Positions 5,581 to 46,614 are shown, numbered from the stretch's first letter. The stretch is DNA of 64,000 nucleotides from Candidatus Uhrbacteria bacterium (GCA_016187485.1 JACPJO010000005.1:71499-135498), one strand, 5' to 3'. The notes: generated from the letters alone by a model not told the origin. Numbers and translations are program-made.

Positions 5581-5587
5581 AACGTTT

Positions 5588-8218
5588 ATGCTCCCAAACA
5601 ATTTTACCCACAAGTCGCAAGAAGCTATTCAGCAAGCGCATATGCTGGCACAGGAAAATGGTCAGCCAGCCATAGAGCCGATTCACCTTTTGGCCTCCCT
5701 CCTCCGTCAGGACGATGGTGTGGTCGTCTCTCTTTTCCAAAAATTGGAGGTGGTGATCTCTGCCCTGCGTGCCGATATTGATGAGATTCTCGATTCCCTT
5801 CCCCGCCAACGTGGTCCGCGGCCCAATGTGCTGGGGCAGGTGTATCTTTCCCAGGAAATGGCCAATGTCTTTGGCGCAGCGGCAGAGTTTGCAAAACAAT
5901 TCAATGATGACTTCATTTCTACCGAGCACCTGTTGCTTGGGCTGCTGCGTGACAAAAACGTGGGAAGTTTTCTTGCAAAGTATAACGTGAATGAAGAGGC
6001 CGTGATGCGCGCGCTCAAAGATATTCGCGGGTCGCAGCGCGTGGATACACAAGAGCCTGAATCTCGTTACCAAGCGCTTGAAAAGTATTCGCGTAACTTA
6101 ACGGAAGAAGCGCGTAAAGGGCGTTTGGATCCTGTGATTGGGCGCGATACAGAAATTCGCCGCGTCATGCAAGTACTTTCGCGCCGCAAGAAGAACAACC
6201 CTGTGTTAATCGGCGAGGCGGGCGTGGGAAAGACCGCCATCATGGAAGGACTTGCCCAGCGTATTGTGGACAGTGACGTCCCAGAGCTTCTCAAAAACAA
6301 AGAGGTCGTCTCGCTTGATCTCGGCGCTCTTGTGGCGGGGACAAAGTATCGTGGAGAGTTCGAGGACCGGCTCAAAGCTGTTCTTAAGGAGATTCACCAA
6401 TCAGGTGACCGTTTCATTTTATTTATTGATGAATTGCACACCGTTGTGGGTGCGGGAACGTCGGAAGGCGGCACGCTGGACGCCTCCAATATGCTGAAAC
6501 CTGCGCTGGCGCGCGGGGAGCTTCGTGCGGTGGGGGCAACAACGCTCAAGGAGTATCAAAAATATATCGAGAAGGATCCGGCGCTTGAACGGCGATTCCA
6601 GCCGGTGTTTGTCGACGAACCGGATGCGGAAGATACGATTGCAATTCTGCGTGGTATCAAAGAAAAGTACGAGGTGCACCACGGAGTGCGCATTACGGAC
6701 CCTGCGCTGGTGTCGGCGGTAGAGTTGTCGGTGCGCTACATTTCTGATCGCCAACTGCCGGATAAAGCGGTGGATTTGATTGATGAAGCCGCCGCGAGTT
6801 TGCGCATGCAGATTGATTCGATGCCAGAAGAGCTCGATAGCATGAAGCGCGATCTTATGCGACTTGAAATTGAAGCGAAGGCTCTCGAAAGCGAGAAAGA
6901 CAAGGTGTCTACCGCGCGGCGGAAAGAGATTGAACGGCTGCTTGGCGATTTGCGCGAGAAGGTCATGGGTCTTGAAGCGCGGTGGCAAAATGAGAAAGAA
7001 AAAATTACAGACATTCACCGTATTAAGGAAGACACGGAAAAACTCAAATTGAAAGCCGAAATTGCCGAGCGTCAACAGAATCTCGAAGAGGTTGCGCGCA
7101 TTCGTTATTCAGAGATTCCAGCAAAGGAGAAAGATTTGCAGAAAGCCGGACGCGCGCTGCGAGAACTTCAAAAAGACCGCGGTATTCTGAAGGAGGAGGT
7201 CACCGAGGAAGATATTGCCGTCGTTGTTTCACGGTGGACGAATATTCCGGTGGCGAAAATGCTTGAATCAGAACGGGCGAAGCTTGTGCGCATGGAAGAG
7301 GAGATCAAGAAACGTGTGGTTGGACAGGATGATGCCATTGTGGCCGTCTCGAATGCCCTTCGCCGTTCACGCGCAGGCGTCGCCGAAGAAAATCGGCCGA
7401 TCGGCTCCTTCATTTTTATGGGGCCGACAGGGGTGGGAAAGACGGAGTTGGCGCGGGCGCTTGCGGAATTCATGTTTAACGACGAGGACGCACTCATCCG
7501 GCTTGATATGAGCGAGTACATGGAGAAGCATGCCACAAGTAAGATGCTCGGTTCCCCGCCGGGGTATGTCGGTTACGAGGAAGGTGGACAGCTGACCGAG
7601 ATTATTCGTCGCCGGCCATACGCGGTCGTGTTATTCGATGAGATAGAGAAGGCGCACCCAGATACGTTTAACGTTCTCCTGCAGATTCTCGATGACGGGC
7701 GACTTACGGATGCGAAAGGGCGTAAAGTAAATTTCAAGAATACGATTGTCATCATGACATCCAACATCGGGTCAGACCTGATCCTTTCTTCTGGCGCGCG
7801 CGGTGCTATTGGATTTACGGCGAGCGAAGGAGCGGCAGGAGAACGCCAGGAAATACATACACGCTTGCAGGAGATGCTGCGTGATCATTTCCGACCGGAG
7901 TTTTTGAATCGCATTGACGACACGATTGTCTTCGATCCTCTTCAACAGGCGGACCTCAGTCACATTGTGGAACTTCAGCTCGCTCGCGTAGCGAAGCGTT
8001 TACATGAGCACCACGACTTGACGCTCGATGTTTCCGATTCAGCGAAGAAAGTGTTGACGCAGCACGGGTTTGATCCGAAATACGGGGCGAGACCGCTCAA
8101 GCGCGCTATACAGACATACCTTCTCAACCCCCTCGCAAAAGAGATTCTTGCGGGCGACATCAAAGACGGCAGTAAGGTTCGTGTGAGTGCAAAGAACGGA
8201 ACATTATTGTTTACCTAA
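5588..8218 (+). CDS. clpB: ClpB disaggregase (two AAA+ domains plus middle coiled coil)
   Basis: The 876-aa product has an N-domain, two Walker A motifs ([16 protein letters not shown]) and a middle coiled-coil region. Confidence 0.95.
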
Positions 8219-8255
8219 ACGAAAGAGAGCCCGGAGGCTCTCAAGAGAGAAGGAA
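8216..8255. repeat. Copy 1 of a ~45-nt direct repeat containing a GAGAGCC-N4-GGCTCTC hairpin
   Basis: TAAACGAAAGAGAGCCCGGAGGCTCTCAAGAGAGAAGGA is about 85% identical to the stretch at 9426..9465. The repeat begins with the clpB stop codon TAA. Confidence 0.7.
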
Positions 8256-8270
8256 CGAGTTTGCAGCGAG

Positions 8271-9278
8271 CTACTTGCTCACTGCCTTGTCCACGGAAAG
8301 GACGAGCCGCGAATCGGCTCCGAGCTCGAAGGAGCTGTCGGCGGTGATGGGCATCACCCGTCCGTTCATCGACCCCATGGCGAGGTAGCCCTGGGCGGTG
8401 AGCTCTGCGAGAAGCTCGGGCCGGACGTGGTATGTGCCGGGCGAGACGATCCAGTAGCCGGCGAGGGCGCTGTTGGACTCGACTGGATTGCCCGCGGCGT
8501 TGTAGAGGGGGTTGTTGGCGGCATCGCGTGCCTGCGACCGTCGCTCGAAGACGATCTGCTCGGACGCGAATTCGAGCAGGTGCTCGTCCGGATCGCCGAA
8601 GGCTGGTGTCACAACTTCGACCACCGGCATTTCGTGCAAGACCACCTCCAACACGTTCTCCATGCCGATCTTGAGGGTGGAGCTGTCGAGCTCGCCCCAG
8701 TAGATGGAGCGGCCGATGGGGCTCGTGCGCAGAACGATGGTTCCCACACCGGCGTAGGTCTGGAAGCGGATCCGGTTCGAGTACTCCTCGGCTTCCTCGG
8801 CGAACTTACGGCCTTCCATCTGGTATTGGTCGCCGCTGTACACCAGGGCGACTTCCCATGTGCTGAGGGAGTCCGTCGTGACTTCCACGGTTGCGCTCCC
8901 GGCGCTCACCGTCACGTTGGCGCGGCACCAGTCGGCGAAACCTGCCTTCTGGAACTTGTCGCTGAGTTCGTTGCAGGCGAGTTCGCCGCTGCTCAACTGG
9001 TAGACCAGCGGAAGGTTGCGGCGGACCATGTAGGCGCCTTCCAGCGTGGCAAGACTTCGCCGACGGATGACCTCCTCGGCCCAGGTCAGATTCCCCACCT
9101 CGCCGGAAGGCTTCTCGGTCACGAGACGCGCCACGACCGTGGCCTTGGTGGGGTCGTCCACCTGCACCGTCGACGTGGTGGTGCCGGACTCCGGCTCGGC
9201 GGCGAAGGCACTCCCGGCGAAGAGCGTGACGCTGGTGATGACGAAGGCGCAGAGCGCCGACAGACTGTGGCTAGACAT
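8271..9278 (-). CDS. Secreted protein of unknown function (signal peptide, ~65% GC)
   Basis: The 335-aa ORF has a signal peptide (MSSHSLSALCAFVITSVTLFAGSAFA). Its composition is balanced, whereas the opposite-strand 413-aa ORF is Gly/Arg/His-rich shadow. Identical hairpin repeats flank the gene. Confidence 0.6.
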   Translation of the reverse strand: MSSHSLSALCAFVITSVTLFAGSAFAAEPESGTTTSTVQVDDPTKATVVARLVTEKPSGEVGNLTWAEEVIRRRSLATLEGAYMVRRNLPLVYQLSSGELACNELSDKFQKAGFADWCRANVTVSAGSATVEVTTDSLSTWEVALVYSGDQYQMEGRKFAEEAEEYSNRIRFQTYAGVGTIVLRTSPIGRSIYWGELDSSTLKIGMENVLEVVLHEMPVVEVVTPAFGDPDEHLLEFASEQIVFERRSQARDAANNPLYNAAGNPVESNSALAGYWIVSPGTYHVRPELLAELTAQGYLAMGSMNGRVMPITADSSFELGADSRLVLSVDKAVSK

Positions 9279-9394
9279 GTACGTTCCTCCGTATGTCCGG
9301 TTTTCCCTCCCGTGGATCCAGTATACCCACGTTCAGGACCAGGAAACATAGGGCAATTTTTCAGAAATGTCAATGTTCAGCCCCTCACATGCCC

Positions 9395-9423
9395 AAAAAT
9401 CAGGAGCTTAGCTCCTGATTTTT
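9395..9423. terminator. Perfect 13-bp-stem hairpin AAAAATCAGGAGC-TTA-GCTCCTGATTTTT (bidirectional rho-independent terminator)
   Basis: Read directly from the sequence. It lies between the XDH-family operon and the secreted-protein gene. Confidence 0.7.
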
Positions 9424-9425
9424 GG

Positions 9426-9465
9426 TAAACGAAAGAGAGCCCGGGGGCTCTCGAGGGAGAAAGGA
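9426..9465. repeat. Copy 2 of the ~45-nt hairpin-containing direct repeat
   Basis: TAAACGAAAGAGAGCCCGGGGGCTCTCGAGGGAGAAAGGA sits immediately 3' of the FAD-subunit gene. On the minus strand it reads as a stem-loop followed by TTTCGTTTA. Confidence 0.7.
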
Positions 9466-10458
9466 CTAGTTTTTACGGGCCAGGTCCATGAGGGCACGGC
9501 GGACCTCGACCTCTGCTTTTGTCGCGCGCCACGTTTGGAAGGATAGATCGCCGTGGACGTTGGTCATGGGCTTTGTGGCCCGACCGACCTTTGCCGCGAT
9601 CTCGCACGCGACCTCTTCGGTCATCTCACGTCCCACGGGCAGTTCGAGTACGCGCGGCTGTGGCCGCACCGAGGAGATGACGATATTCACCCGTTCGCAC
9701 ACAGTGCTCTGGAACCATGCTCCGATCGAGAGCGTCATGGTCGAGAAGCTGATGGCGAGACGTGGAGAGACCTTCACGAACGCCCCACGGAACCCTCTGA
9801 CTGGGCGCGGCACGCGAATGTTGCGAATGAACGTTTCGGACGGAAGAGCAAGGTGGCCCGGGAAGAAGCCGCTTGAAGTGAGGGCATCTGCCAGGCGTAC
9901 GTCACGGATCCCCTTGTGTGTGTGGATTTCGAGGCTGGCACCGTAGAGAAGGAGCGGACCCACCGTGTCGCCCGAACGAGCGGCAACGCAGGCTGTCTGG
10001 CTCCCCGTGACGTGGCATGTATTCCCGTCCTTCTTGAGGCAGCCGCCAAGCGCTGCTCGCCACAAGGAATCCTTGTTGTACCAGTCGCAGCGCGTATCCA
10101 GAGCGATGTTGCCGCCGATCGTGCCGGCACTCCTGTGCTGTGGTGCGCCGACCAGCCCTGCGCTCTTCGCGAGCAGAGGAAGTCGGTCAGTTAACCACCA
10201 CTCCACTTCTGCCAGTGTCGTGAGCGCGCCAATGGAAATGAAGGGCTGACGCGGGTCGTCCGTGGTGCCGCGGAAGCCTCGGATTTCCTCGAGACTCACG
10301 AAGGTCGGCGCCTCCCCGTAGAGGCCGTACTTTGCGTTGTAGAGAACGTCGGTGCCGCCCGCCACGAGGATGGATCCCGGATGCTCCTGCCGTATGGCAA
10401 GGAGAGTGGGGATCGACTGGGGCGTAAGACACCGAGTGCCTAACGGAAGCGGGAGCAT
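9466..10458 (-). CDS. FAD-binding subunit of a xanthine dehydrogenase/CO dehydrogenase-family molybdoenzyme (CoxM/XdhB-like)
   Basis: The start is set at the internal Met (MLPLPLGTRCLTPQSIPTLLAIRQEHPGSILVAGGTDVL...), 1 nt downstream of the large-subunit stop. The product matches the FAD-binding domain of molybdopterin dehydrogenases (GGTDVL, AGTIGGNIA). Confidence 0.8.
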   Translation of the reverse strand: MLPLPLGTRCLTPQSIPTLLAIRQEHPGSILVAGGTDVLYNAKYGLYGEAPTFVSLEEIRGFRGTTDDPRQPFISIGALTTLAEVEWWLTDRLPLLAKSAGLVGAPQHRSAGTIGGNIALDTRCDWYNKDSLWRAALGGCLKKDGNTCHVTGSQTACVAARSGDTVGPLLLYGASLEIHTHKGIRDVRLADALTSSGFFPGHLALPSETFIRNIRVPRPVRGFRGAFVKVSPRLAISFSTMTLSIGAWFQSTVCERVNIVISSVRPQPRVLELPVGREMTEEVACEIAAKVGRATKPMTNVHGDLSFQTWRATKAEVEVRRALMDLARKN

Positions 10459-10459
10459 G

Positions 10460-13105
10460 CTACGTCTCTCCCTTCTTGCGGATGGCGGCGAGAACACGTG
10501 CGCCCGTGAAGGGCATGTCGCTTGCCACTGCGCCGCCGGTGGCGTGCAGGATGGCGTTTCCGATGGCGGGCGGCACGGGAAGGAGCGGCCCCTCCCCCGC
10601 TTCCTTTGCCCCATGCGGACTCATGGGGTCGTGGGTTTCGATGATGAACGATTCAACCTCTGGAGCATCGAGTGCCGTAGCGATGCCATGCAGAAGAAGG
10701 TTGGGCTGCTCCAGGAGTCCCCGCGTGCCATATGTCATGCACTCGAAGCGCGCCTCGGAGTCACCCATGGACACGGATCCCTGGATCTGTCCGTGGACGG
10801 CCGAAGGGTTGATGGGCTTTCCACAATCGTGTGCTGCCCAGACGCGCTCGACCCGCACTTCCCCCGTCTCGTTGTCCACGTGCACAAGAGCCACGACGGC
10901 CGTCATGCTATACGTGGGTGAGGCGCCGATGGTGTTGCCGCGGTAGTCGTGCCCATGCGCTTTCACTGGAATGGTGAAGTAGGTGCCTGTGCATGACGGC
11001 GTGCGCGCTCCGCGGTCGAGTTCACGCCGGATTTCACGCGCGGCGTTTACCGCTGCCGTGCCGAGCATGAATGCGCACCGCGAGGAGTAGGCACCGAGGT
11101 CCACTGGACCCAGGGCCGTATCTCCGGTAGTGACGGTGATCCGTTTGCGAGCGATGCCGGTCTCTGCCTCTGCGAGGAGGATCAGCATCATCTCGAGTCC
11201 TTGGCCGATGTCGTTTGCCTGGGTGCAGATGTAGAGCCGTCCGTCCTCCGCCACCGTCATGGTGACGTTAGACTGTGCATCGTCGCGCTGGCCCAAGATG
11301 GCGCCTGCCGTGCCCGAGATGTAGGCGCCCACGGCACAGCCGAGACCAAAGCCGGAGGGAAGCTCGTGGCGATCTTTCCAGCCGCTTGCTTCCTCCACCA
11401 CACGCAGACACTCGAGGATACCAGAACTTGGCACGTGGAAGCCGTTCACCATCTCCTCGCCAGCAGCGATGGCGCCGCGCCGGCGAACCAGGATCGGATC
11501 CAAGCCGAGCTTGGAGGCCGCCATGTCGAGAAGCGTCTCGAAGGCGAACCGCGGTTGGGGTGTGCCGTGCCCTCGCTTGGGACCTTGCGGCGGCTTGTTC
11601 GTGTAGATGCGCCGCGAACGAGCGCGGTAGGCGCCGATCTTGATGGGCGCACCGAGGAGCTGAAGCAGGTAGTAGACCGTGATGGGACCGAACGAGGCGA
11701 AGGCTCCGCCGTCGAGCAGGATGTCTGACTCCACGCCCAGCACTCGACCACCTGCGTCCATGGCAAGACGCATCTGAATGCTCGTGGTGTGTCGTCCACG
11801 GTGGAAGGTGAAGACCTCCTCGCGCGTGTACTGCATCTTTATGGGCCTCTCCGTGACCTGCGCCAGCTTGGCCGCGCACAAGTCGATTTCGGAGATGTCG
11901 GAGTCCCCGCCGAATGCCCCGCCCTTTTTGAGCTGGGTCACGCGGACGTTTTCCTCTGCGACACCCAGCACGTGCGCCAGAGCAACCTGTAGGTAATGAC
12001 TCACCTGTGTGCCAGAGTAGACGTGCAGCTTTTCCCCCGACCAGACAGCGATGACGGCGTGCGTCTCGAGCGCGGCGTGGTTGGAGCCGGGGTACGTGAA
12101 TGTCCCCTCGACGACCACAGCAGCGTCTCGAAACGCCCCCTCCACATCACCGAAGTCCGGCAATTCGACTTCCTTGTACACGTTGTCCGCCCTTGGCGTT
12201 CCCTTGCGAGGATCCACCGCATGGACAAGCGGGGCACCAGCCGCAAGCGCGTCCTTCATGGTAAGCACGGCGGGCAAAGGCTCGTAGCTCACATGGATGG
12301 CCGCGCATGCACGAAGCGCCGTCTGTTCATCCACGGCTGCGACAGCCGCGACGGCCTGGCCCACGTAGAAGACCTCGTGCTGCGCGAGCGCATGCTCGTC
12401 GGCTGCCCAGGGAATGATCCCGTAGGACACCAGCAAGTCCTTGCCCGTGATGACCGCAAAGACGCCTGGCATGGCCTGTGCGTCCTTCGTATCCACCGAC
12501 AGGATCCGCGCGTGCGCATGAGGCGAACGCAGAACCTTGCCTACCAACATGCCGGGCAGGTGGACGTCGTCCGTGTATCCGGCCGATCCATTGGCCCTCT
12601 CCTGCGCGTCGAACTTCACGATCGCATCACCGGGTGCCTCGCGCATTCCTGCGGCAACCTCTACAGCGTCGAAGATGGGGTTGTACCCCGTGCAGCGGCA
12701 GAGGTTTCCCGAAAGCGCGCGCTTGATGGCCGGGCGCGTGGGGCGCGTGTCACGACGCAGAAGCGCCAACCCCGACATCACCATGCCGGGCGTGCACGCG
12801 CCACATTGCGTTCCCTGACACGTACCCATTGCTGTCTGCAGGGCGTGGCCGCGCGGATCGCGGAACGCTCCCTCGATTGTCTCGACCGAATGTCCCTCGG
12901 TCTGGCGAGCCAACGTGAGGCACGACAGCCGCGGCTTGCCGTCTACGAGGACCGTGCACGTTCCGCACGTTCCACTATCGCACCCCTGTTTCGTTCCCGT
13001 CTGCCCCGCCTTGCGAAGGAGCTCGAGGAGCGTACGGGAGTCCGCGACATCTTCGAACGTCGCCTGATCTCCATTTAGCGTGAAGATGAGAGGCCGGTTG
13101 GCCAT
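10460..13105 (-). CDS. Fused [2Fe-2S] ferredoxin plus molybdopterin-binding subunit of an XDH/aldehyde-oxidase/CoxL-family hydroxylase
   Basis: The N-terminus has a plant-type 2Fe-2S site (CDSGTCGTCTV...C) and a second cluster motif (GNLCRCTGY). About 730 aa of Mo-pterin-binding large-subunit sequence follows. The locus is about 65% GC. Confidence 0.85.
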   Translation of the reverse strand: MANRPLIFTLNGDQATFEDVADSRTLLELLRKAGQTGTKQGCDSGTCGTCTVLVDGKPRLSCLTLARQTEGHSVETIEGAFRDPRGHALQTAMGTCQGTQCGACTPGMVMSGLALLRRDTRPTRPAIKRALSGNLCRCTGYNPIFDAVEVAAGMREAPGDAIVKFDAQERANGSAGYTDDVHLPGMLVGKVLRSPHAHARILSVDTKDAQAMPGVFAVITGKDLLVSYGIIPWAADEHALAQHEVFYVGQAVAAVAAVDEQTALRACAAIHVSYEPLPAVLTMKDALAAGAPLVHAVDPRKGTPRADNVYKEVELPDFGDVEGAFRDAAVVVEGTFTYPGSNHAALETHAVIAVWSGEKLHVYSGTQVSHYLQVALAHVLGVAEENVRVTQLKKGGAFGGDSDISEIDLCAAKLAQVTERPIKMQYTREEVFTFHRGRHTTSIQMRLAMDAGGRVLGVESDILLDGGAFASFGPITVYYLLQLLGAPIKIGAYRARSRRIYTNKPPQGPKRGHGTPQPRFAFETLLDMAASKLGLDPILVRRRGAIAAGEEMVNGFHVPSSGILECLRVVEEASGWKDRHELPSGFGLGCAVGAYISGTAGAILGQRDDAQSNVTMTVAEDGRLYICTQANDIGQGLEMMLILLAEAETGIARKRITVTTGDTALGPVDLGAYSSRCAFMLGTAAVNAAREIRRELDRGARTPSCTGTYFTIPVKAHGHDYRGNTIGASPTYSMTAVVALVHVDNETGEVRVERVWAAHDCGKPINPSAVHGQIQGSVSMGDSEARFECMTYGTRGLLEQPNLLLHGIATALDAPEVESFIIETHDPMSPHGAKEAGEGPLLPVPPAIGNAILHATGGAVASDMPFTGARVLAAIRKKGET

Positions 13106-13175
13106 GAGATCCTCCGATGCAAAGCCACCGTCAGGATTGACGGTGGCCTATCTTATCCATGCAAATCCTCCCCTG

Positions 13176-13943
13176 TCAAAGCTCGCCGGACGCTTTAAGG
13201 GCGCTTGTATAAAGGCAATAATCACACTCTTTCGATCGGGCTGGCAGGCGGCCATCAAGACATGCTCGCGCGTTGACCAACGCTGACTCTACCCAAGCGG
13301 TATTGCCGGTATAGGGAATCACTTTCACGTCGAATTCCAGTTTTCCGTCGAATGCTTTGCGGTCAGTCTTTCCGTTGCAATAGATGAAGTATCCCGTATC
13401 AGAAACCACAAAACCATTTTGCCGGAGTAGCCATTGGTAGATTTCCATTTGATTCTTGTAACTCTTCTGCCACTCGGCATCGAGTCCGACCTCGCCATCT
13501 TTTGCCGTGGACTTATAATCTACGACAATCAATTTCCCATCTCGTCCAACCCACACGTCGTCTACAGCACCAGTCAGAATAAAATTTGTTGGTTCGTGAT
13601 GATACTGCACGCCCACAAAATTTTCTCGCCATGCATCCAAGTCATCGTGAGCAAAAGGAACCGCATCGATGCCATAGGTCTCCATGAGAGGGTGTGGAGT
13701 GCCAGCCGCCCGATGAAGATCGAATTCTTTTTTAAGGAGAGTGTCTACGGCAGAGTTCAGATTAAAGGGAAACCCGGGCGGGCGATCTACACCAAGCCGG
13801 CGATCCACGTAAAAACACCGTGGGCAATTCAAAAAATTTTCGAGCTTTGAGCGCGAGAGCTTGAACGGCTCGGGAGAGGCAGGATCGAAAATGTTTCTTG
13901 TCCGGACGCCCTTGTAGTATTGCGACATATCTAGAGAAGACAA
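13176..13943 (-). CDS. PD-(D/E)XK nuclease, Cas4/RecB-nuclease-like with probable Fe-S cysteines (no CRISPR context)
   Basis: The product has cysteines at both ends: N-terminal CPRCFYVDR and C-terminal C-x12-CDYC. IVVDYKS is a D..EXK-type motif. Confidence 0.6.
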   Translation of the reverse strand: MSSLDMSQYYKGVRTRNIFDPASPEPFKLSRSKLENFLNCPRCFYVDRRLGVDRPPGFPFNLNSAVDTLLKKEFDLHRAAGTPHPLMETYGIDAVPFAHDDLDAWRENFVGVQYHHEPTNFILTGAVDDVWVGRDGKLIVVDYKSTAKDGEVGLDAEWQKSYKNQMEIYQWLLRQNGFVVSDTGYFIYCNGKTDRKAFDGKLEFDVKVIPYTGNTAWVESALVNARACLDGRLPARSKECDYCLYTSALKASGEL

Positions 13944-14524
13944 CCGAGAAGAACTTTTATATCATCAAGAAGGATCGTTTTTTGATGGATATTATAGATG
14001 GCGACGGCGGGATGGTAGAGGGGAACGATGGCAAGGTTTCCCCATGGTGCCGAAACGCGAAAGGTTTTTCCGTGCAAGCGACTGATGGAGGCAAGCTCGG
14101 CCTCAAGCCCAAAACGGCGCAGGAGGTAGTCCATCGAAAAGCGGCCGAGAGTGGCAAGAACTTTGGGACGGATGATGTCTATTTGTCGCTCGAGAAGTGG
14201 GCCATAGAGGGCAATTTCGTCGGGAAATGGGTCGCGATTTTGCGGTGGGCGATCCTTTACGACGTTCGTGATGTAGACCTCCTCGCGTTTGAGGCCGATG
14301 GATTCAATGAGTTCGTCTAAAATACGTCCGGCGGCTCCACAGAACGGTCGTCCCGTCGCCGCTTCGTTCCTCCCCGGCGCCTCACCCACAAACATGATCT
14401 CAGCATCATGATTTCCCTCGCCCAGGACGGGCAGGACGCCATTTTGTCGCCGCTCATCGGCGAGTGTTGACGAGAGTGCCACCACTTCGTCTCGTATCTG
14501 GCGCATGAGATCTTTCTTATCCAT
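13931..14524 (-). CDS. Family 4 uracil-DNA glycosylase
   Basis: The translation carries GEAPGRNEAATGRPFCGAAGRILDEL and the YITNVVKDRPPQNRDP motif. Confidence 0.85.
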   Translation of the reverse strand: MDKKDLMRQIRDEVVALSSTLADERRQNGVLPVLGEGNHDAEIMFVGEAPGRNEAATGRPFCGAAGRILDELIESIGLKREEVYITNVVKDRPPQNRDPFPDEIALYGPLLERQIDIIRPKVLATLGRFSMDYLLRRFGLEAELASISRLHGKTFRVSAPWGNLAIVPLYHPAVAIYNIHQKTILLDDIKVLLGCLL

Positions 14525-14585
14525 ACGCGCCTATTCTACTGGTATTGAAACTTTACGCCAATTCCTTTACAATGCCGGGGCATTT

Positions 14586-14661
14586 CGGGCTATAGCTCAG
14601 TAGGTAGAGCGCTACGTTCGGGTCGTAGAGGCCGTGGGTTCGAGTCCCGCTAGCCCGACCA
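14586..14661 (+). tRNA. tRNA-Pro (anticodon CGG)
   Basis: Manual cloverleaf: acceptor CGGGCTA/TAGCCCG, anticodon loop TTCGGGT, T-loop TTCGAGT, and an encoded CCA. Confidence 0.75.
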
Positions 14662-14679
14662 GAGATGCTTATGTCTTGA

Positions 14680-14755
14680 CGGGCCGTGGCGCAGTTGGTA
14701 GCGCGCTTGCATGGGGTGCAAGAGGTCGCCAGTTCGAGTCTGGTCGGCCCGACCA
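14680..14755 (+). tRNA. tRNA-Pro (anticodon GGG)
   Basis: Manual cloverleaf: acceptor CGGGCCG/CGGCCCG, anticodon stem CTTGC/GCAAG with loop ATGGGGT, T-loop TTCGAGT, and an encoded CCA. Confidence 0.7.
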
Positions 14756-14787
14756 AAAAACAGACCGTGAGGTCCGTTTTTGCTTTA

Positions 14788-15900
14788 CTACTCACTGTTT
14801 GAATCATCTTCCTCGTCATGTACTTTATGCCTAGCCCAACCATAAAGGGCGAGCGCCGCCGCTTTATTAATTGGTTTTCGGTTGACGTCACCAAAAATAG
14901 GGTTTCGGAAGCTTTTCTGTGGTCTTGAAAGAATCGGCCCAGACCCATCATCCATTTGGAGCATAAGGGCGGAATAAATTTTTGACTCCTCAGGAGTCCT
15001 TACCAGCATCTTCAAATGTTCATAGCAAATACGTTTAAGTTCTTTATCCTTTAAACGGATAGCGTATTCTGCTAAAAAGAGCCAATCTTCTCGCTGTAGA
15101 TGATCATGACCGAACTCTGCGAAAGCTACCAACAACTTCTCTAACAAAACACGCTCGACTTTTGTACCCCTTGTACCTTTTGTTTGCTGGCCAGCTTTAG
15201 TTGCAATTTTCTCCCTTAAAAACTTCAAAAAGTCTCTGCCAGACATCTGTTTTGAAAGTCTCCGAAGGTGTCCGAGCAAAGGCCTATGATTGTTTGTTTT
15301 TCTATTCAGAATTACGTTTACGTGTGCTTTCAGGTACTCTTCATCTTCTGGATTTCCTCCAAGTTCCAAGAATCTCTGAAAATACATATCATCATCGCCC
15401 CTTCGCGATGTATTAGCTAGATAGATGCAGTCCTCGAGACTCGTGATATCCGTTATGGGTGTGTTCATGAGCTCTGCACGGTGCTCCTGTAAGCCTGTAG
15501 AACCTTTTGTTGGTTCTTTCTGAGTTTTTTCCCACTCAGGTGCAATTTGAGAAAGACGTTTCTCTAAAAGATACGAATATAGGCCGCGTGCTTCAGTTGA
15601 TCTCGAAAAATCATAAACGTGCAACAATGCCCGGACATTACTCTCGTCTGCCCTATCAAGATGTTTACGAAAGATAGACGTAGCACGACTCTTTAGATCA
15701 TGGTTACTCAACACGACCTTCATAATATTTTTCAGTGTGTCTGGGTTAAACCAATCTACTCGCTCAATAAGAGCAAGTGCCTCTCTTGGTTTATTTTCGT
15801 TTACGAACTGGGTTATAAGTTCTATGATCTGGCGTCGCTGTTCCAGACACAACCTCTCTTCGTCGTTAAGCTCTGCCCAGGATTTCTCATATTTTGCCAT
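14788..15900 (-). CDS. Orphan protein of unknown function in an AT-rich (~42% GC) segment beside the tRNA-Pro pair
   Basis: The 370-aa ORF has no recognisable domain. Its composition is sharply lower in GC than the flanking genes. Confidence 0.6.
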   Translation of the reverse strand: MAKYEKSWAELNDEERLCLEQRRQIIELITQFVNENKPREALALIERVDWFNPDTLKNIMKVVLSNHDLKSRATSIFRKHLDRADESNVRALLHVYDFSRSTEARGLYSYLLEKRLSQIAPEWEKTQKEPTKGSTGLQEHRAELMNTPITDITSLEDCIYLANTSRRGDDDMYFQRFLELGGNPEDEEYLKAHVNVILNRKTNNHRPLLGHLRRLSKQMSGRDFLKFLREKIATKAGQQTKGTRGTKVERVLLEKLLVAFAEFGHDHLQREDWLFLAEYAIRLKDKELKRICYEHLKMLVRTPEESKIYSALMLQMDDGSGPILSRPQKSFRNPIFGDVNRKPINKAAALALYGWARHKVHDEEDDSNSE

Positions 15901-15906: not shown

Positions 15907-16488
15907 CTATATCATCTTTTCTACCCCCTCCCAATGAATATTATTTAGGAACGCCTCCAGATACGCCGACTTGTTCGTGCCGTATTGCTTCGCGAAGGCG
16001 TGCTCCCAACAGTCGAGGGCAAGGAGGATTTCGACGCCGGCGGGGACGTTGTTGGCGTGCTCAAAGACGACATAGTGCTCGAGTGTCTCTTCGCCGCGAT
16101 TGTTGACGAGAAGCACCCATCCCGGTGTCGCAGAAGCACAGGCCAGGAGATCCTGCTTCCAGGCATCCATCGAGCCGAAACTTTTCACAAGCGCGACCTC
16201 AAGAACCGATGGAATGACAGATCCGCTTGGGGTGAGCGCGTCAAAATAGAGTTCGTGCAGCTTCGCGCCGTTCCATGCAACAGATTTTCTGCGTACAAGC
16301 TCGCTGTGCGGCGCGTACGAATAATTTCCCTTCTTCTCAACATTTGGAAGCGTCGCGCAAATTTCGTTATACTTTTTTACGTACCCCTCGTAGAGTTTCA
16401 GGTGCTCCTCTATGAGATCCGCGTTGAACCCAGGAAGAGAGCCAATAAGATGCTGGTAATTTTTCACGTCGTGCATACTACTCGACAA
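15907..16488 (-). CDS. sodA: Fe/Mn superoxide dismutase family protein (divergent N-terminal domain)
   Basis: The C-terminal DCWEHAFA (DVWEHAYY-like) and the WNGAKLHELYF region are conserved. In the N-terminal HHxKHH region the histidines are mostly replaced (EEHLKLYEGYV). Confidence 0.7.
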   Translation of the reverse strand: MSSSMHDVKNYQHLIGSLPGFNADLIEEHLKLYEGYVKKYNEICATLPNVEKKGNYSYAPHSELVRRKSVAWNGAKLHELYFDALTPSGSVIPSVLEVALVKSFGSMDAWKQDLLACASATPGWVLLVNNRGEETLEHYVVFEHANNVPAGVEILLALDCWEHAFAKQYGTNKSAYLEAFLNNIHWEGVEKMI

Positions 16489-17002
16489 TCAATGTTCCTC
16501 CCATCGAACCGTGGAAGTTGCAACGAAACGGGAATGTACCAGTGGTGTCTGCGACAAATTCTGTCGTCACAGGCGTTCCCGCGCCGAGCGTAAGGTTCAC
16601 GTTGTATCCCGCGAGCGTGTAGGTGTGCAGCCCATCTATACTCAGTGCTTGCAGAGTGACTGTGGAGCCCTTCTTTACCCGAATGGTGGAAGGTTCGAAC
16701 CCAGAAAACCTCGCCAACACCGTTACACGAGTTTCTTCTGGCTCCGGTTCTGCAGGAGGAGTTTGTGTGGGTTGGTTTTCCTGACCCTGTTGTGGTTCTG
16801 GCTTCGTTGGAGGGGTCTCTGGCGGTGCGGCCTCGTTCCCTTCTGCGGCAGGAACTTCTCCCTGAACATCTTCTACAACGATCGCATTTGCTGGTTCTTC
16901 CTCGTTCGAATCAATCGTTATCTGCGTTTGACTGGCACAACCGGCACCGATAAGGATCACTGCCGCGAGTGCAAAAGCACTATATTTGTTGGGGAATTTC
17001 AT
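16478..17002 (-). CDS. Cupredoxin-like (type-1 copper) lipoprotein with a Pro/Glu-rich linker
   Basis: The start is set at MKFPNKYSAFALAAVILIGAGC, which carries a lipobox. The C-terminus has the LHTYTL ... FRCNFHGSMGG His/Cys/His/Met copper-site pattern. Confidence 0.6.
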   Translation of the reverse strand: MKFPNKYSAFALAAVILIGAGCASQTQITIDSNEEEPANAIVVEDVQGEVPAAEGNEAAPPETPPTKPEPQQGQENQPTQTPPAEPEPEETRVTVLARFSGFEPSTIRVKKGSTVTLQALSIDGLHTYTLAGYNVNLTLGAGTPVTTEFVADTTGTFPFRCNFHGSMGGTLIVE

Positions 17003-17047
17003 AGTAAAGTTATTATAACATACCGCCTCTGGTATAATAGGACTGCT

Positions 17048-18427
17048 ATGCGATTCTTTGCTATTTTTACTGCTCTCGCTGTCTTGTTTGCCCCCTCTCC
17101 CCTTCTTGCCTTCAACCCAAACTATCTTATCTCCGACCACGAATTTACCGATCGATTTGCTCTTGATCTTGGAACGATTCAGAATTTACTTGCGAAGGGG
17201 ACGTTGGCACGCTACGTTGTGGAAGATGTTGACGGCCGCCGCCGTTATGCTGCGGATATTATTTGGCGTGCGGCGCAACGAAACGGGATCTCGCCAAAAG
17301 TGATCATTACCATGTTGCAAAAAGAGCAGAGCCTCGTGGAAGATACTTCGCCCGCTTCCACACAATTTGATTGGGCGATGGGATATGGCATTTGCGACAC
17401 GTGCTCGTACGAAACTCCTTCCGCGCAGCGTTTCAAGGGATTCGCCAAGCAGATCAACTCTGCCACTCTGCAACTTGCGGAAGGATATTTGGCAGATCTT
17501 CTTTCAAAAGGTAAGACCGTTCTTGGTTTTGCGCCCGGCACAGCAAAGACCGTAGACAACACGGTGGTGGTACCAGAGAACAACGCAACGGCGGCACTGT
17601 ACACGTATACACCGCACTTACACGGGAATAAAAATTTTGTGACAATTTTTGATCGTTACTTTGCCAAGCGCCACCCGTCGGGAACACTTCTGCGCGATCC
17701 AGAATCTGGAGGTGTATACCTGATTCAATTTGGAAAAAAGCGCCCGTTCCTTTCGCTGGCGGCGCTTGTGTCGCGCTACGATGTGGCGCGTGTGATTGAC
17801 GCAAGCCCTACTGACCTTGCTGGGTATGAGACAGGCTTGCCCATAGCCTTTCCAAATTACGCGCTCCTTGAAGCTGCTGGTACTGTCTATCTCCTTGTGG
17901 ATGACACCGTCCGCCCGTTTGCGTCCTCGGATGTCCTTCGCGGACTTGGGTTCAATTCGGATGAGATTCTTGCGGTTACCGCCGAAGAACTTGCACCCTA
18001 CGACAAAGGAGAGCCTATTGTGCTTGATAGCTCGTACCCGGAGGGTGCGATCTTCCAGCACGACACAAGCGGCACGTATTACCTCATCCAAAACGGACGT
18101 CGGCATTTGGTCGCTACTGATGAAATTCGCAAACTTACCTGGGGTACGAAGGAGGTCCATCGTGTGGGTGAGGACCGCATTGTTGCGTATCCGGAACGCG
18201 CAGCCGTCAAGCTTCCCGACGGACTTCTAGTTAAATCCTCGGATGATAGTCGTGTATATGTGATTTCTGATGGTACGCGCAGGCTTATTCCCGATGAAGA
18301 AACTTTCCGCGCGCTTGGCTGGAAGTGGGAGCTTGTGAAGACCGTTTTGCCGGAAACCCTGCGTGTCCATCCAGAAGGTCTGCCGCTTGAATCCTCAACT
18401 CAAGCTGTGAGTATTGCCACACCATAG
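17048..18427 (+). CDS. Secreted protein with four ~45-aa C-terminal repeats (G-x-VYLI-x2-G-x-RR-x-I type) and a possible cell-wall-hydrolase-like N-domain
   Basis: The start is set at MRFFAIFTALAVLFAPSPLLA (signal peptide), behind a TGGTATAAT extended -10. The repeats are SGGVYLIQFGKKRPF, AGTVYLLVDDTVRPF, SGTYYLIQNGRRHLV and SRVYVISDGTRRLI. Confidence 0.6.
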   Translation: MRFFAIFTALAVLFAPSPLLAFNPNYLISDHEFTDRFALDLGTIQNLLAKGTLARYVVEDVDGRRRYAADIIWRAAQRNGISPKVIITMLQKEQSLVEDTSPASTQFDWAMGYGICDTCSYETPSAQRFKGFAKQINSATLQLAEGYLADLLSKGKTVLGFAPGTAKTVDNTVVVPENNATAALYTYTPHLHGNKNFVTIFDRYFAKRHPSGTLLRDPESGGVYLIQFGKKRPFLSLAALVSRYDVARVIDASPTDLAGYETGLPIAFPNYALLEAAGTVYLLVDDTVRPFASSDVLRGLGFNSDEILAVTAEELAPYDKGEPIVLDSSYPEGAIFQHDTSGTYYLIQNGRRHLVATDEIRKLTWGTKEVHRVGEDRIVAYPERAAVKLPDGLLVKSSDDSRVYVISDGTRRLIPDEETFRALGWKWELVKTVLPETLRVHPEGLPLESSTQAVSIATP

Positions 18428-46251: not shown

Positions 46252-46614
46252 ATGACTATTTCAGGTGTTGTCGTGAAAGGACAGGGTTTAGGCAGAGTGC
46301 TTGGTTTTCCCACTGCTAATCTTGCATTCTTTCCCGCTCTTCCCCCGGGTGTCTATCTCGCATACGTTCGTACAAAAGAAGGTCTGTTCCCTGGTGTGCT
46401 TGCGCAAGGAAAGAAAACAGAGGTTCACCTCCTAGATTTTACCGGGGATCTTTACGGGAGCAAGATAGAGATTGAGGTAGACGAGCGTATTTCCGATATG
46501 ATTCCGTGGACGACGCTCGAGGAGTTGCGAGAAAAAATTTCACACGATATTGAGAACGCCCGATATGTTTTCCGGCATCGTCCGCGCAAAGGGAGAGATT
46601 GCGAACATCAATGA
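46252..46614 (+). CDS. Riboflavin kinase (monofunctional, RibF C-domain type)
   Basis: The translation has GQGLGRVLGFPTANL. The 3' end overlaps ribE. Confidence 0.7.
   Translation: MTISGVVVKGQGLGRVLGFPTANLAFFPALPPGVYLAYVRTKEGLFPGVLAQGKKTEVHLLDFTGDLYGSKIEIEVDERISDMIPWTTLEELREKISHDIENARYVFRHRPRKGRDCEHQ

What the first reader, a model, noticed from the sequence alone, without database searches (positions are those of the whole stretch)
8216..13110. High-GC island encoding an XDH/CoxSML-family molybdo-flavoenzyme in an otherwise reduced genome
The segment is about 65% GC against roughly 55% for the housekeeping background. Strong GC3 bias produces long spurious antisense ORFs. The island encodes a fused 2Fe-2S plus Mo-pterin subunit (881 aa) and a CoxM-like FAD subunit, plus a secreted protein. 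Mo-hydroxylases need a full molybdopterin cofactor pathway and are not expected alongside the short RpoA, AlaRS and PK and the dead PriA seen elsewhere. This looks like a horizontally acquired catabolic module (purine, aldehyde, CO or N-heterocycle oxidation) of unknown substrate.
Basis: partly seen in the sequence, partly recalled or inferred. Interest (0 to 1): 0.7.

Follow-up and report, generated by a model that had tools for sequence, protein, structure and literature searches.

The report
Acquired 4-hydroxybenzoyl-CoA-reductase-like enzyme island in Uhrbacteria
A 5-kb GC-rich insert in a small-genome Candidatus Uhrbacteria (CPR) bacterium carries intact, selectively maintained genes for a molybdenum-flavin-iron-sulfur enzyme that most resembles the reductive 4-hydroxybenzoyl-CoA reductase, not a CO or xanthine dehydrogenase; its substrate and its molybdenum-cofactor source are unknown.

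Summary
Window 8219-13175 is a 4,957-nt block of 62-65% GC (GC3 0.73-0.86) in a 53.6% GC genome (GC3 0.56 +/- 0.06). It is the only tetranucleotide outlier in the 64 kb.

It is a real insertion. Independent assemblies reproduce both junctions. Three related Uhrbacteria share the flanking gene order but lack the block. In one of them the ClpB and PD-(D/E)XK nuclease stop codons are 2 nt apart.

The host is Candidatus Uhrbacteria. The block holds a fused [2Fe-2S]+Mo-pterin subunit (881 aa), a translationally coupled FAD subunit (330 aa) and an orphan secreted protein.

The FAD subunit is not CoxM-like. It carries the four-cysteine [4Fe-4S] loop so far described only in Thauera 4-hydroxybenzoyl-CoA reductase, which is the best structural and HMM match for all three parts. 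It still fails the equivalog cut-offs and falls in a different subclade: a widespread, uncharacterised fused family.

Cofactor ligands are intact and dN/dS is about 0.1, so the genes are functional.

Codon usage is closest to the one high-GC (63%) Uhrbacterium compared.

No Moco biosynthesis or maturation gene lies in the DNA I could reach. The rest of the genome could not be searched.

Verdict: a genuine, moderately interesting new member of a known enzyme kind.

The parts
8219..13175 (.). Inserted GC-rich island (4,957 nt) between the convergent ClpB and PD-(D/E)XK nuclease genes
   Evidence: Window 5587-8170 aligns to L173 10000-12586 and window 13312-13929 to L173 12782-13399. In L173 the two stop codons are 2 nt apart. 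GC, GC3 and tetranucleotide composition are outliers.
10460..13105 (-). Fused gamma-alpha subunit, 881 aa. Residues 1-155 hold two [2Fe-2S] domains (Cys 42/47/50/62 and 101/104/136/138). The rest is a/b-hammerhead plus two Moco-binding domains (Gln367, Glu838).
   Evidence: Pfam. NCBIfam best hit is TIGR03194 at 643.5 bits. PDB best hits are 1rm6_A at 443 bits and 1rm6_C at 147 bits. Residue positions. dN/dS 0.09 against L088.
9466..10458 (-). Beta subunit, 330 aa, FAD-binding, translationally coupled to the large gene (1-nt gap)
   Evidence: FAD_binding_5. TIGR03195 at 154.6 bits. 1rm6_B at 94.5 bits. Gene call in independent contig L001. dN/dS 0.12.
9988..10089 (-). Codons for the [4Fe-4S] loop of the beta subunit: Cys124-x15-Cys140-x7-Cys148-x8-Cys157
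   Evidence: All four Cys align with those of Thauera HcrB in the HMMER alignment. The loop was found in 70 of 76 beta genes of the family; most of the six misses were over-long, wrongly picked ORFs. Positions.
8271..9278 (-). Orphan secreted protein, 335 aa, GC3 0.86; a separate cassette inside the island
   Evidence: No Pfam or NCBIfam hit. Only two database matches, both Uhrbacteria: itself and one at 86%. dS 0.14 and dN/dS 0.44 against L088.
8216..8262 (.). Copy 1 of a 47-nt direct repeat containing terminator hairpin GAGAGCCTCCGGGCTCTC + TTTCGTTTA (8225-8242); lies between the secreted-protein gene and ClpB
9426..9472 (.). Copy 2 of the 47-nt direct repeat (87% identical) with the same hairpin (9435-9452), overlapping the stop codon of the beta gene. 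The two copies bracket the 1,210-nt secreted-protein cassette.
   Evidence: (0 matches expected by chance).
9393..9425 (.). Perfect 16+16-nt palindrome CCAAAAATCAGGAGCT/AGCTCCTGATTTTTGG (bidirectional terminator-like). Logan contigs break here.
   Evidence: I3. Contig ends of L001 and L089-L092.
13106..13179 (-). Leader of the large gene: promoter-like TTGACA-18-TAAGAT (13179-13150), hairpin 13124-13147, GGAGG ribosome-binding site, ATG at 13105
   Evidence: These are consensus matches only.
5588..8218 (+). Left flank: native ClpB
   Evidence: Pfam. Closest homologues are 77% identical, from Candidatus Uhrbacteria.
13176..13943 (-). Right flank: native PD-(D/E)XK (Cas4-like) nuclease, followed by UDG at 13931-14524
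   Evidence: Syntenic in L093, L173 and L174.

Best explanation
The window comes from a Candidatus Uhrbacteria (CPR/Patescibacteria) genome. Into the convergent ClpB | PD-(D/E)XK junction of a conserved backbone, this lineage received about 5 kb of foreign DNA. Codon usage is closest to the one high-GC (63%) Uhrbacterium compared, so another, GC-richer Uhrbacterium is a plausible donor. The insert is composite: a two-gene enzyme operon, plus a later-moving orphan secreted-protein cassette bracketed by 47-nt repeats. The operon encodes a cytoplasmic molybdenum-flavin-iron-sulfur enzyme with the cofactor layout of 4-hydroxybenzoyl-CoA reductase: Mo-pterin, two [2Fe-2S], FAD, and an extra [4Fe-4S] on the FAD subunit. 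Shown here: the architecture, the ligand conservation, the purifying selection and the insertion. Inferred: as in Thauera 4-HBCR, the extra cluster accepts low-potential electrons (reduced ferredoxin) and passes them [4Fe-4S] -> FAD -> 2x[2Fe-2S] -> Mo. The enzyme would then reduce a substrate, most likely by removing a hydroxyl group from an activated aromatic acid or aryl-CoA, giving a fermentative cell an electron sink. The substrate is probably not 4-hydroxybenzoyl-CoA itself. The Uhrbacteria proteins form their own clade beside an uncharacterised fused family, far from Thauera HcrA.
For: Host identity: the ClpB and Mo-enzyme nearest hits are named Candidatus Uhrbacteria.

Real junctions: L001 and L002 span UDG-PDDEXK-alpha-beta. 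L089-L092 span the secreted-protein gene and ClpB. L088 (GCA_016177675.1) has alpha-beta-sec in the same order at 83.6% nt identity.

Empty site: L173, L174 and L175 keep M23-GltX-ClpB ... LigB-PriA-Def-Fmt-Wzy but lack the block.

Composition. Codon-fraction distance of alpha/beta is 0.75/1.02 to a 63%-GC Uhrbacterium, 1.68/1.75 to the window's own genes and 1.09-1.25 to Myxococcota.

Enzyme identity: the best NCBIfam hits for all three parts are the 4-HBCR alpha, beta and gamma models, and the best PDB hits are 1rm6 A, B and C. The four-Cys loop aligns residue for residue with HcrB, at Cys124/140/148/157. PMC11760930 singles this loop out as the feature of 4-HBCR beta that its relative UcdC lacks.

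Integrity: 8 Fe-S cysteines, Gln367 and Glu838 are present. dN/dS is 0.09 for alpha and 0.12 for beta.

Phylogeny: the Uhrbacteria clade has 100% bootstrap support and is sister (99%) to the fused non-CPR clade.
Against: Direction of catalysis and substrate are inferred only from homology. The scores are below every equivalog cut-off: 643.5 of 994.55, 154.6 of 404.55 and 159.4 of 257.8. Thauera HcrA lies in the other half of the tree and shares 38.6% identity over the aligned columns. All Uhrbacteria copies lack a 41-residue segment that most of the family keeps, and they differ at 18-23 of 165 near-invariant columns. No aryl-CoA ligase, ferredoxin, MocA, XdhC, MoaB or other Moco gene occurs in the window or in the Uhrbacteria loci. 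In other phyla, MocA, XdhC or MoaB genes often sit next to the module. The fused family is common in aerobes such as Myxococcota, Gemmatimonadota and Poseidoniales, which fits poorly with a strictly anaerobic ferredoxin-driven role. The donor inference rests on codon fractions of short genes, is dominated by GC3, and compares only one high-GC Uhrbacterium. No integrase, transposase or target-site duplication marks the island ends.
Confidence: 0.6

Rival explanations
1. It is an ordinary oxidative Mo-hydroxylase (xanthine, aldehyde, N-heterocycle or CO dehydrogenase). Electrons would flow from substrate at Mo outwards to FAD and the extra cluster, and on to ferredoxin or another acceptor.
For: Most characterised members of the superfamily are oxidative (stated in PMC12771579). 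XDH, aldehyde oxidoreductase and CODH models all give significant hits. The catalytic Glu and Gln typical of hydroxylases are conserved. The fused family occurs in many aerobes.
Against: The 4-HBCR models outscore every oxidative model for all three parts: 643 bits against at most 457 for whole-protein models. The [4Fe-4S] loop is the feature that PMC11760930 uses to distinguish reductive 4-HBCR, and it is conserved here and across the family. At the position I take to be homologous to the CoxL Cu-binding loop (recalled from memory, not aligned here), the protein reads KRGHGTPQ with no Cys, by reading the sequence.
Confidence: 0.25
2. The genes are an inactive passenger: an apo-enzyme that cannot mature because the CPR host lacks Moco synthesis. 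They would be carried only because the transfer is recent.
For: No Moco biosynthesis, MocA or XdhC gene is in the 64-kb window or in the related Uhrbacteria loci. Such genes flank the module in other phyla. The Uhrbacteria clade has long branches, a 41-aa deletion and more changes at conserved columns.
Against: dN/dS is 0.09 and 0.12 over dS 0.6-0.9 between two Uhrbacteria species, which shows long-term purifying selection. At least five diverged Uhrbacteria-clade copies all keep full length and the beta partner. All metal ligands are intact. Flavin supply genes are present: ribE and ribH in the window, and FAD synthetase just outside it. Most of the genome was not examined.
Confidence: 0.08
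3. The block is ancient and vertically inherited in Uhrbacteria and has merely moved or been lost in relatives. Its high GC would reflect amino-acid composition or local mutation bias, not transfer.
For: The Uhrbacteria copies are monophyletic with deep internal divergence of 58-65% identity. In L003 and L007 the module is also GC-richer than its flanks, with little or no GC3 excess, so part of the signal is GC1/GC2.
Against: Three backbone-syntenic relatives lack it at this site, one with a 2-nt gap. Here GC3 is 3-5 sd above the genome mean. Codon usage is far from the host's and close to that of a 63%-GC Uhrbacterium. The module sits in three unrelated contexts in three lineages. An ancient entry into Uhrbacteria followed by a recent intra-phylum transfer reconciles both sets of facts.
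Confidence: 0.07
4. The block is an assembly or binning artefact: a chimeric contig joining CPR DNA to DNA from a high-GC organism.
For: There is a sharp compositional step. Several Logan contigs end inside the island near 9400-9420.
Against: Independent assemblies from different runs cross both outer junctions. The internal break coincides with a perfect 33-nt palindrome, a known weak point for de Bruijn assemblers (established knowledge), and it is bridged by the NCBI 303-kb contig and by the sister species contig L088. The closest relatives of all three genes are Uhrbacteria.
Confidence: 0.02

Closest known systems
4-hydroxybenzoyl-CoA reductase HcrCAB of Thauera aromatica (PDB 1RM6/1SB3; HbaBCD in Rhodopseudomonas palustris)
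   Same: Same cofactor-binding modules: two [2Fe-2S], Mo-pterin domains and an FAD domain. The beta-subunit insertion has four Cys with identical spacing, C-x15-C-x7-C-x8-C. It is the best PDB and NCBIfam match for all three parts. The active-site Gln and Glu are conserved.
   Different: Gamma and alpha are fused into one 881-aa chain. Identity to HcrA is only about 39% over aligned columns, and the protein falls in a different half of the family tree. It scores below the equivalog cut-offs. A 41-residue segment corresponding to HcrA 549-590 is missing. There is no aryl-CoA ligase or benzoyl-CoA pathway context. The host is a CPR bacterium, not a denitrifier or phototroph.
Uncharacterised fused gamma-alpha + beta[4Fe-4S] two-gene family, database-labelled '4-hydroxybenzoyl-CoA reductase subunit alpha' (Myxococcota, other Proteobacteria, Kiritimatiellia, Gemmatimonadota)
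   Same: Same fusion, same alpha-then-beta gene pair and same Cys loop. Identity is about 50%, and this clade is sister to the Uhrbacteria clade with 99% bootstrap support. In the contigs examined it is often an orphan pair in housekeeping surroundings.
   Different: Non-CPR members are 920-950 aa, keep the 41-aa segment, and score 828-852 bits on TIGR03194 against 633-678 for the Uhrbacteria clade. Across the wider family, including unfused forms, the module often has MocA, XdhC or MoaB neighbours, and sometimes acyl-CoA dehydrogenase or enoyl-CoA hydratase neighbours. These are absent from the Uhrbacteria loci. I found no experimental function for this family.
Urolithin C dehydroxylase Ucdh/UcdCFO of Enterocloster bolteae
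   Same: It is the second xanthine-oxidase-family enzyme shown to carry out reductive phenol dehydroxylation, and it acts on a non-CoA substrate with an electron-withdrawing para group (PMC12771579, PMC11760930). This shows that 4-HBCR relatives need not use CoA esters.
   Different: Ucd has three separate subunits and lacks the [4Fe-4S] loop (PMC11760930). It is 32.7% identical to 4-HBCR (PMC12771579).
Aerobic CO dehydrogenase CoxSML and bacterial xanthine dehydrogenases
   Same: Same superfamily and domain set.
   Different: HMM scores are far below the cut-offs: CODH 239-272 against 950-991, XDH 235-407 against 780-916. CoxM/CutM flavoproteins match only weakly, at 33.7-35.3 bits, with no stretch passing the threshold, and they do not have the four-Cys loop.

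Membership tests
Xanthine oxidase / Mo-hydroxylase superfamily | Two [2Fe-2S] domains with eight ligand cysteines | tested here: met
   Fer2 and Fer2_2 hits. Cys 42/47/50/62 and 101/104/136/138 are present.
Xanthine oxidase / Mo-hydroxylase superfamily | a/b-hammerhead plus two Moco-binding domains, full length | tested here: met
   Ald_Xan_dh_C residues 173-278, MoCoBD_1 307-543, MoCoBD_2 573-815. The alignment to 1rm6_A covers residues 165-873.
Xanthine oxidase / Mo-hydroxylase superfamily | Conserved active-site Gln and catalytic Glu (bovine XO Gln767 and Glu1261, numbering from memory) | tested here: met
   TQV (Gln367) aligns with TQV of HcrA. GAKEAGEG (Glu838) aligns with GAKEASEG.
Xanthine oxidase / Mo-hydroxylase superfamily | FAD-binding subunit or domain of the FAD_binding_5 type | tested here: met
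   PF00941 at 93.2 bits.
Xanthine oxidase / Mo-hydroxylase superfamily | Host can supply a matured Mo-pterin (MCD) cofactor | not testable with these tools
   No Moco, MocA or XdhC gene lies in 64 kb plus about 45 kb of Uhrbacteria loci.
4-hydroxybenzoyl-CoA reductase (HcrCAB/HbaBCD) in the strict sense | About 40-residue beta-subunit insertion with four Cys binding a [4Fe-4S] cluster | tested here: met
   RCDWYNKDSLWRAALGGCLKKDGNTCHVTGSQTAC aligns Cys for Cys with HcrB RCTFYNQSEWWRSGNGYCLKYKGDKCHVIVKSDRC. The Cys are at 124/140/148/157.
4-hydroxybenzoyl-CoA reductase (HcrCAB/HbaBCD) in the strict sense | Scores above the NCBIfam equivalog cut-offs (TIGR03194, TIGR03195, TIGR03193) | tested here: not met
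   643.5 against 994.55, 154.6 against 404.55, and 159.4 against 257.8. Other Uhrbacteria copies score 633-678.
4-hydroxybenzoyl-CoA reductase (HcrCAB/HbaBCD) in the strict sense | Clusters phylogenetically with experimentally proven HcrA | tested here: not met
   NJ tree on 703 columns with 100 bootstraps. Thauera HcrA groups (100%) with unfused forms in the other half of the tree. The Uhrbacteria clade is sister (99%) to the fused clade. This was NJ only, and the HcrA sequence was retyped from the alignment.
4-hydroxybenzoyl-CoA reductase (HcrCAB/HbaBCD) in the strict sense | Genomic association with 4-hydroxybenzoate-CoA ligase or benzoyl-CoA pathway genes | tested here: not met
   None appears among the Pfam annotations of the window ORFs or of L003 and L007. 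Only local DNA was tested.
4-hydroxybenzoyl-CoA reductase (HcrCAB/HbaBCD) in the strict sense | Ferredoxin-dependent reductive dehydroxylation activity | not testable with these tools
   Needs biochemistry.
Aerobic CO dehydrogenase CoxSML | CoxL-level HMM score, and the Cys-containing active-site loop (VAYRCSFR in form I, from memory) | tested here: not met
   TIGR02416 scores 238.9 against 991.15 and NF040766 scores 272.3 against 950. No such loop is seen in the sequence: the position I take to be homologous (from memory, not aligned here) reads KRGHGTPQ.
Ucdh/UcdCFO urolithin dehydroxylase | Sequence relatedness to UcdhC, with three separate subunits and no [4Fe-4S] loop | not tested
The architecture differs (fused, loop present) according to PMC11760930.

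The most novel reading that the evidence does not exclude
A CPR episymbiont that cannot make molybdopterin nevertheless maintains, under strong purifying selection, a ferredoxin-driven 4-HBCR-like reductase. It would load the enzyme with Moco scavenged from its host. The enzyme would serve as a fermentative electron sink on an aromatic or other activated substrate not yet known for this enzyme family. To my knowledge that would be the first case of inter-bacterial Moco dependence, and it would give a function to the large uncharacterised fused family.
Probability: 0.1. Interest if true: 0.85.

Novelty: new member of a known kind. Interest (0 to 1): 0.5.

Why it matters
CPR/Patescibacteria are thought to live by simple fermentation with few cofactor-demanding enzymes. 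A selectively maintained enzyme with five redox centres, including Mo-pterin, in Uhrbacteria has two consequences. Either these cells make Moco, which would be an unrecognised capacity, or they obtain it from elsewhere. Each alternative can be tested on existing genomes.

It also gives a clean, dated example of gene flow into a reduced genome: an empty site in relatives, foreign codon usage, and no mobile-element genes.

Finally, it draws attention to a very large, widely distributed family. This family has the fused gamma-alpha subunit and a [4Fe-4S]-bearing flavoprotein, and databases label it '4-hydroxybenzoyl-CoA reductase'. It fails the equivalog thresholds, often lacks any aromatic-pathway context in the contigs examined, and has no experimentally shown function that I could find. 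After Ucdh, it is a plausible reservoir of further reductive xanthine-oxidase-family enzymes.

Tried and rejected
It returned only non-CPR genomes at 50% identity or less, so it gave no census of CPR carriers.

2. The metagenome scan with the PD-(D/E)XK protein gave 80 CPR loci. Only L093 is syntenic, and its contig ends 251 nt past the gene, so it gave no empty-site information. The ClpB route solved this.

3. An AlphaFold2 single-sequence model of the orphan secreted protein had mean pLDDT 35.3 and was unusable. No fold search was run.

4. Rfam found only three tRNAs at gathering thresholds. The 70-nt leader before the large gene is too short for a Moco riboswitch, and none was detected.

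5. Literature searches for Mo enzymes or Moco in Uhrbacteria, Parcubacteria or CPR found nothing relevant. The Structure 2004 paper on 4-HBCR is not held, so substrate-channel residues could not be compared.

6. The GC-rich Ser/Thr kinase was compared with kinases that flank the module in Myxococcota. Identity was only a generic 30-36%, so there is no link.

7. No direct repeats or att-like sequences were found at the two island ends, and no integrase or transposase lies in or beside it.

8. A first bootstrap tree with Biopython's distance calculator timed out. A first tree was distorted by truncated ORF picks. Both were replaced.
Full report
**1. Observation**

The window averages 54.1% GC. 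Two-kb windows between 8 and 13 kb reach 0.61-0.64, while almost all others lie between 0.48 and 0.56.

I split the window into 61 likely genes. The three genes in the flagged segment have GC 0.646, 0.623 and 0.639, and GC3 0.860, 0.734 and 0.757. The other 58 have GC 0.536 +/- 0.031 and GC3 0.564 +/- 0.060. Tetranucleotide distance to the rest of the window exceeds mean + 2 sd only for the 5-kb windows 7501-12500 and 10001-15000.

The segment is not the only GC-rich gene. A Ser/Thr kinase at 48089-49771 has GC 0.641 and GC3 0.754, and two short ORFs have GC3 above 0.71.

**2. Gene content**

All three genes are on the minus strand.
- ORF 10460-13105 (881 aa) carries Fer2, Fer2_2, Ald_Xan_dh_C, MoCoBD_1 and MoCoBD_2.
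- The next gene starts 1 nt after its stop codon (9466-10458, 330 aa; gene call confirmed on an independent contig). It has FAD_binding_5.
- After a 187-nt spacer comes ORF 8271-9278 (335 aa). It has a signal-peptide-like N-terminus and no family hit.

**3. Host and reality of the locus**

The nearest homologues of the Mo subunit are named Candidatus Uhrbacteria (a 92% partial hit, then 58-63%). Next comes a very large set of fused proteins at about 50% identity from other phyla. ClpB next door is 77% identical to Uhrbacteria ClpB, and the top 120 hits that carry names are Uhrbacteria or Patescibacteria.

The rest of the window is typical CPR. RpoA has no C-terminal domain hit, AlaRS is 628 aa, pyruvate kinase is barrel only, PriA has only its 3'BD domain recognised, and there are many glycosyltransferases and orphan ORFs.

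Independent Logan assemblies reproduce UDG-PDDEXK-alpha-beta (L001 in five samples, and L002). Others reproduce the secreted-protein gene next to ClpB (L089-L092). Those contigs end at a perfect 16+16-nt palindrome at 9393-9425, which I take to be an assembler weak point. The gap is bridged by the 303-kb NCBI contig and by a sister species contig, L088 (GCA_016177675.1). L088 has alpha-beta-sec in the same order at 83.6% nucleotide identity. Chimerism is therefore excluded for practical purposes.

**4. It is an insertion**

Three Uhrbacteria contigs share the backbone on both sides: SerRS-Alr-...-M23 peptidase-GltX-WecG-ClpB on the left, and PDDEXK-UDG-...-SOD-...-LigB-PriA-Def-Fmt-Wzy on the right (the third relative, L175, keeps a shorter version of each side).
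- In L173 (135-kb contig, GC 0.537), the ClpB stop and the PDDEXK stop are 2 nt apart. Window 5587-8170 and 13312-13929 align to L173 10000-12586 and 12782-13399, with nothing matching 8219-13175.
- L174 has a different small insert there: a 153-aa PaaX_M-domain ORF in a spacer of GC 0.42.
- L175, from a 63%-GC Uhrbacterium, has other genes there.

So a 4,957-nt block entered this convergent junction in the lineage of the window and its sister species.

The module occurs in other Uhrbacteria-clade genomes, but in unrelated contexts: next to the S6-SSB-S18 operon in L003, and next to YchF in L007.

No integrase, transposase or terminal repeat marks the ends, so the mechanism of entry is unknown.

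**5. Origin**

I built an NJ tree on 703 alpha-region columns with 100 bootstraps.
- The five Uhrbacteria-clade sequences form a 100%-supported clade on a long stem.
- That clade is sister (99%) to fused proteins from Proteobacteria, Myxococcota, Kiritimatiellia and Gemmatimonadota.

Because the family is otherwise spread over many non-CPR phyla, the simplest history is a single old entry into Uhrbacteria.

The GC3 excess here (3-5 sd) cannot be that old. In L007 the module's GC3 equals its neighbour's, and in L003 the excess is small.

Within-amino-acid codon fractions of alpha and beta are closest to genes of the 63%-GC Uhrbacterium (distances 0.75 and 1.02). They are far from the window's own genes (1.68 and 1.75) and intermediate to Myxococcota (1.09-1.25). 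Named Uhrbacteria MAGs span 40-63% GC.

I therefore infer a recent transfer from a GC-richer Uhrbacterium. This is inference from short genes, dominated by GC3, and rests on a single high-GC comparison genome.

**6. The island is composite**

A 47-nt direct repeat (87% identical) lies at 8216-8262 and 9426-9472. Each copy contains the same terminator hairpin, and the pair brackets the 1,210-nt secreted-protein cassette. No such match is expected by chance.

Against the sister species, the secreted-protein gene has dS 0.14, while alpha and beta have 0.61 and 0.94. Its only database relatives are those two Uhrbacteria. It looks like a later addition, or a recently exchanged cassette. I found no evidence that it works with the enzyme.

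**7. What the enzyme is**

NCBIfam ranks the three 4-hydroxybenzoyl-CoA reductase models first: alpha 643.5 bits, beta 154.6, gamma 159.4. Se-dependent XDH (456.6), XdhA (407), aldehyde oxidoreductase (384) and CODH (239-272) follow. The best solved structures are 1rm6/1sb3 chains A (443 bits), C (147) and B (94.5).

The decisive detail is in the flavoprotein. Its segment RCDWYNKDSLWRAALGGCLKKDGNTCHVTGSQTAC aligns cysteine for cysteine with the HcrB segment RCTFYNQSEWWRSGNGYCLKYKGDKCHVIVKSDRC. The Cys lie at 124/140/148/157. PMC11760930 describes that loop as the [4Fe-4S]-binding extra of 4-HBCR beta, which its relative UcdC lacks. The title of Unciuleac et al. 2004, cited there, links it to an inverted electron flow.

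**8. Is it a true 4-HBCR?**

It is not, by the tests I could run.
- All three scores are below the equivalog cut-offs of 994.55, 404.55 and 257.8. The fused non-CPR relatives also fail (828-852), and other Uhrbacteria copies score 633-678.
- Thauera HcrA, retyped from the alignment, groups with unfused forms in the other half of the tree. It shares 38.6% identity with the window protein over the kept columns.
- No aryl-CoA ligase or benzoyl-CoA pathway gene is nearby.
- The Uhrbacteria clade has lost a 41-residue segment after residue 702, which corresponds to the unaligned HcrA 549-590. It has also lost 10 residues of the gamma-alpha linker, and it differs at 18-23 of 165 columns that are at least 95% conserved in the rest of the family.

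The whole family shares the alpha-then-beta gene pair. The four-Cys loop was found in 70 of 76 beta genes, and most of the six misses were over-long, wrongly picked ORFs.

In other phyla the module is often flanked by a MobA-like NTP transferase (14 loci, several phyla), XdhC (11), MoaB/Mog (11), acyl-CoA dehydrogenase (9) or enoyl-CoA hydratase (8). This fits an MCD cofactor and, in some lineages, CoA-ester substrates. In Myxococcota contigs the pair can also sit alone among housekeeping genes. I found no experimental work on this fused family.

**9. Is it functional here?**

All eight [2Fe-2S] cysteines, the four [4Fe-4S] cysteines, Gln367 and Glu838 are present. Between the window and the sister species, dN/dS is 0.09 for alpha (dS 0.61) and 0.12 for beta (dS 0.94). 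The genes are translationally coupled. They are preceded by a promoter-like TTGACA-18-TAAGAT, a hairpin and a GGAGG site. Riboflavin synthase and lumazine synthase are in the window, and an FAD synthetase lies just beyond its left end.

This is not a decaying passenger.

**10. The open problem: Moco**

No MoaA, MoaC, MoeA, MoCF_biosynth, NTP_transf_3 or XdhC domain appears in any window ORF I scanned. HMMs built from the family's own MocA, XdhC and MoaB neighbours find nothing, even at E <= 10, in six-frame translations of the window and of L003, L007, L088, L089 and L093.

That covers about 110 kb, not a genome. The tools did not let me search the remainder.

**11. Mechanism proposed**

Shown: the cofactor sites and their order in the polypeptides, the conservation, the selection and the insertion.

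Inferred from 4-HBCR: low-potential electrons enter at the [4Fe-4S] cluster of the beta subunit. They pass through FAD and the two [2Fe-2S] clusters to Mo-pterin, where an oxygen atom is removed from the substrate. For a fermentative CPR cell this would act as an electron sink.

The discovery of Ucdh shows that relatives of 4-HBCR can dehydroxylate non-CoA phenols (PMC12771579). I therefore leave the substrate as an activated hydroxy-aromatic acid or aryl-CoA. I give the reductive reading roughly two to one over an oxidative hydroxylase.

**12. Verdict**

This is a real, recently inserted, functional gene island in a Uhrbacterium. It encodes a divergent member of the 4-HBCR-like branch of the xanthine-oxidase superfamily.

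It is a new member of a known kind. Interest is moderate, and would rise sharply if the carrier genomes prove to lack Moco synthesis.

Noticed in passing
window 8216-8262 and 9426-9472: A 47-nt direct repeat (87% identical) brackets the 1,210-nt orphan secreted-protein cassette. Each copy carries the same terminator hairpin. That gene's dS against the sister species is 0.14, compared with 0.6-0.9 for the adjacent enzyme genes, which suggests separate and more recent movement or exchange of the cassette.
   Followed up: partly
window 9393-9425: A perfect 16+16-nt palindrome (CCAAAAATCAGGAGCT/AGCTCCTGATTTTTGG) coincides with the ends of several independent Logan contigs. It is probably a bidirectional terminator that breaks de Bruijn assemblies.
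   Followed up: partly
window 48089-49771 (also 33414-34022 and 62360-62902): A second compositional outlier: a 560-aa Ser/Thr protein kinase with GC 0.641 and GC3 0.754. Its codon usage is also closest to a 63%-GC Uhrbacterium (distance 0.90, against 1.62 to the host). Two short ORFs without family hits have GC3 0.72-0.73. These may be further imports from the same kind of donor.
   Followed up: partly
L174 12641-13422 (same ClpB | PDDEXK junction in a relative): A different small insert occupies the same junction in a related Uhrbacterium: a 153-aa PaaX_M-domain ORF in a spacer of GC 0.42. L175 has yet other genes there. The junction appears to be a recurrent insertion spot.
   Followed up: partly
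window 46550-47621; L089 11101-11152: Riboflavin synthase (Lum_binding) and lumazine synthase genes are in the window, and an FAD synthetase-like gene lies just beyond the left end. Flavin cofactor genes in a CPR genome are relevant to a flavoenzyme.
   Followed up: no
window 52013-53230: A 405-aa ORF has weak T4SS coupling-protein/TraG-D_C hits and is surrounded by ORFs with no family hits (51374-55886). It may be a remnant of a conjugative or DNA-transfer element in the same contig.
   Followed up: no
window 18157-18251: ARAGORN calls a 95-nt tRNA-Arg(ccg) inside the 638-aa ORF 16511-18427. Rfam does not report it at gathering threshold, so it is probably a false positive. The tandem tRNA-Pro(cgg)/tRNA-Pro(ggg) pair at 14586-14755 is confirmed by both tools.
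   Followed up: partly
L008-L087 (family loci): The 4-HBCR-like module with the four-Cys flavoprotein loop is widespread in aerobic or facultative lineages (Myxococcota, Gemmatimonadota, Poseidoniales/MGII archaea, Marinimicrobia, Planctomycetota). Recurrent neighbours are MocA, XdhC, MoaB, acyl-CoA dehydrogenase, enoyl-CoA hydratase and a small Rieske protein. Poseidoniales copies have extra cysteines in the loop (CHKCDCGTxADC).
   Followed up: partly
window 18431-19222 and 15907-16488: A LigB/MEMO-family protein and an Fe/Mn superoxide dismutase (C-terminal domain hit only) are conserved in the Uhrbacteria backbone. In L173 a cupredoxin/COX2-like ORF lies next to the SOD.
   Followed up: no
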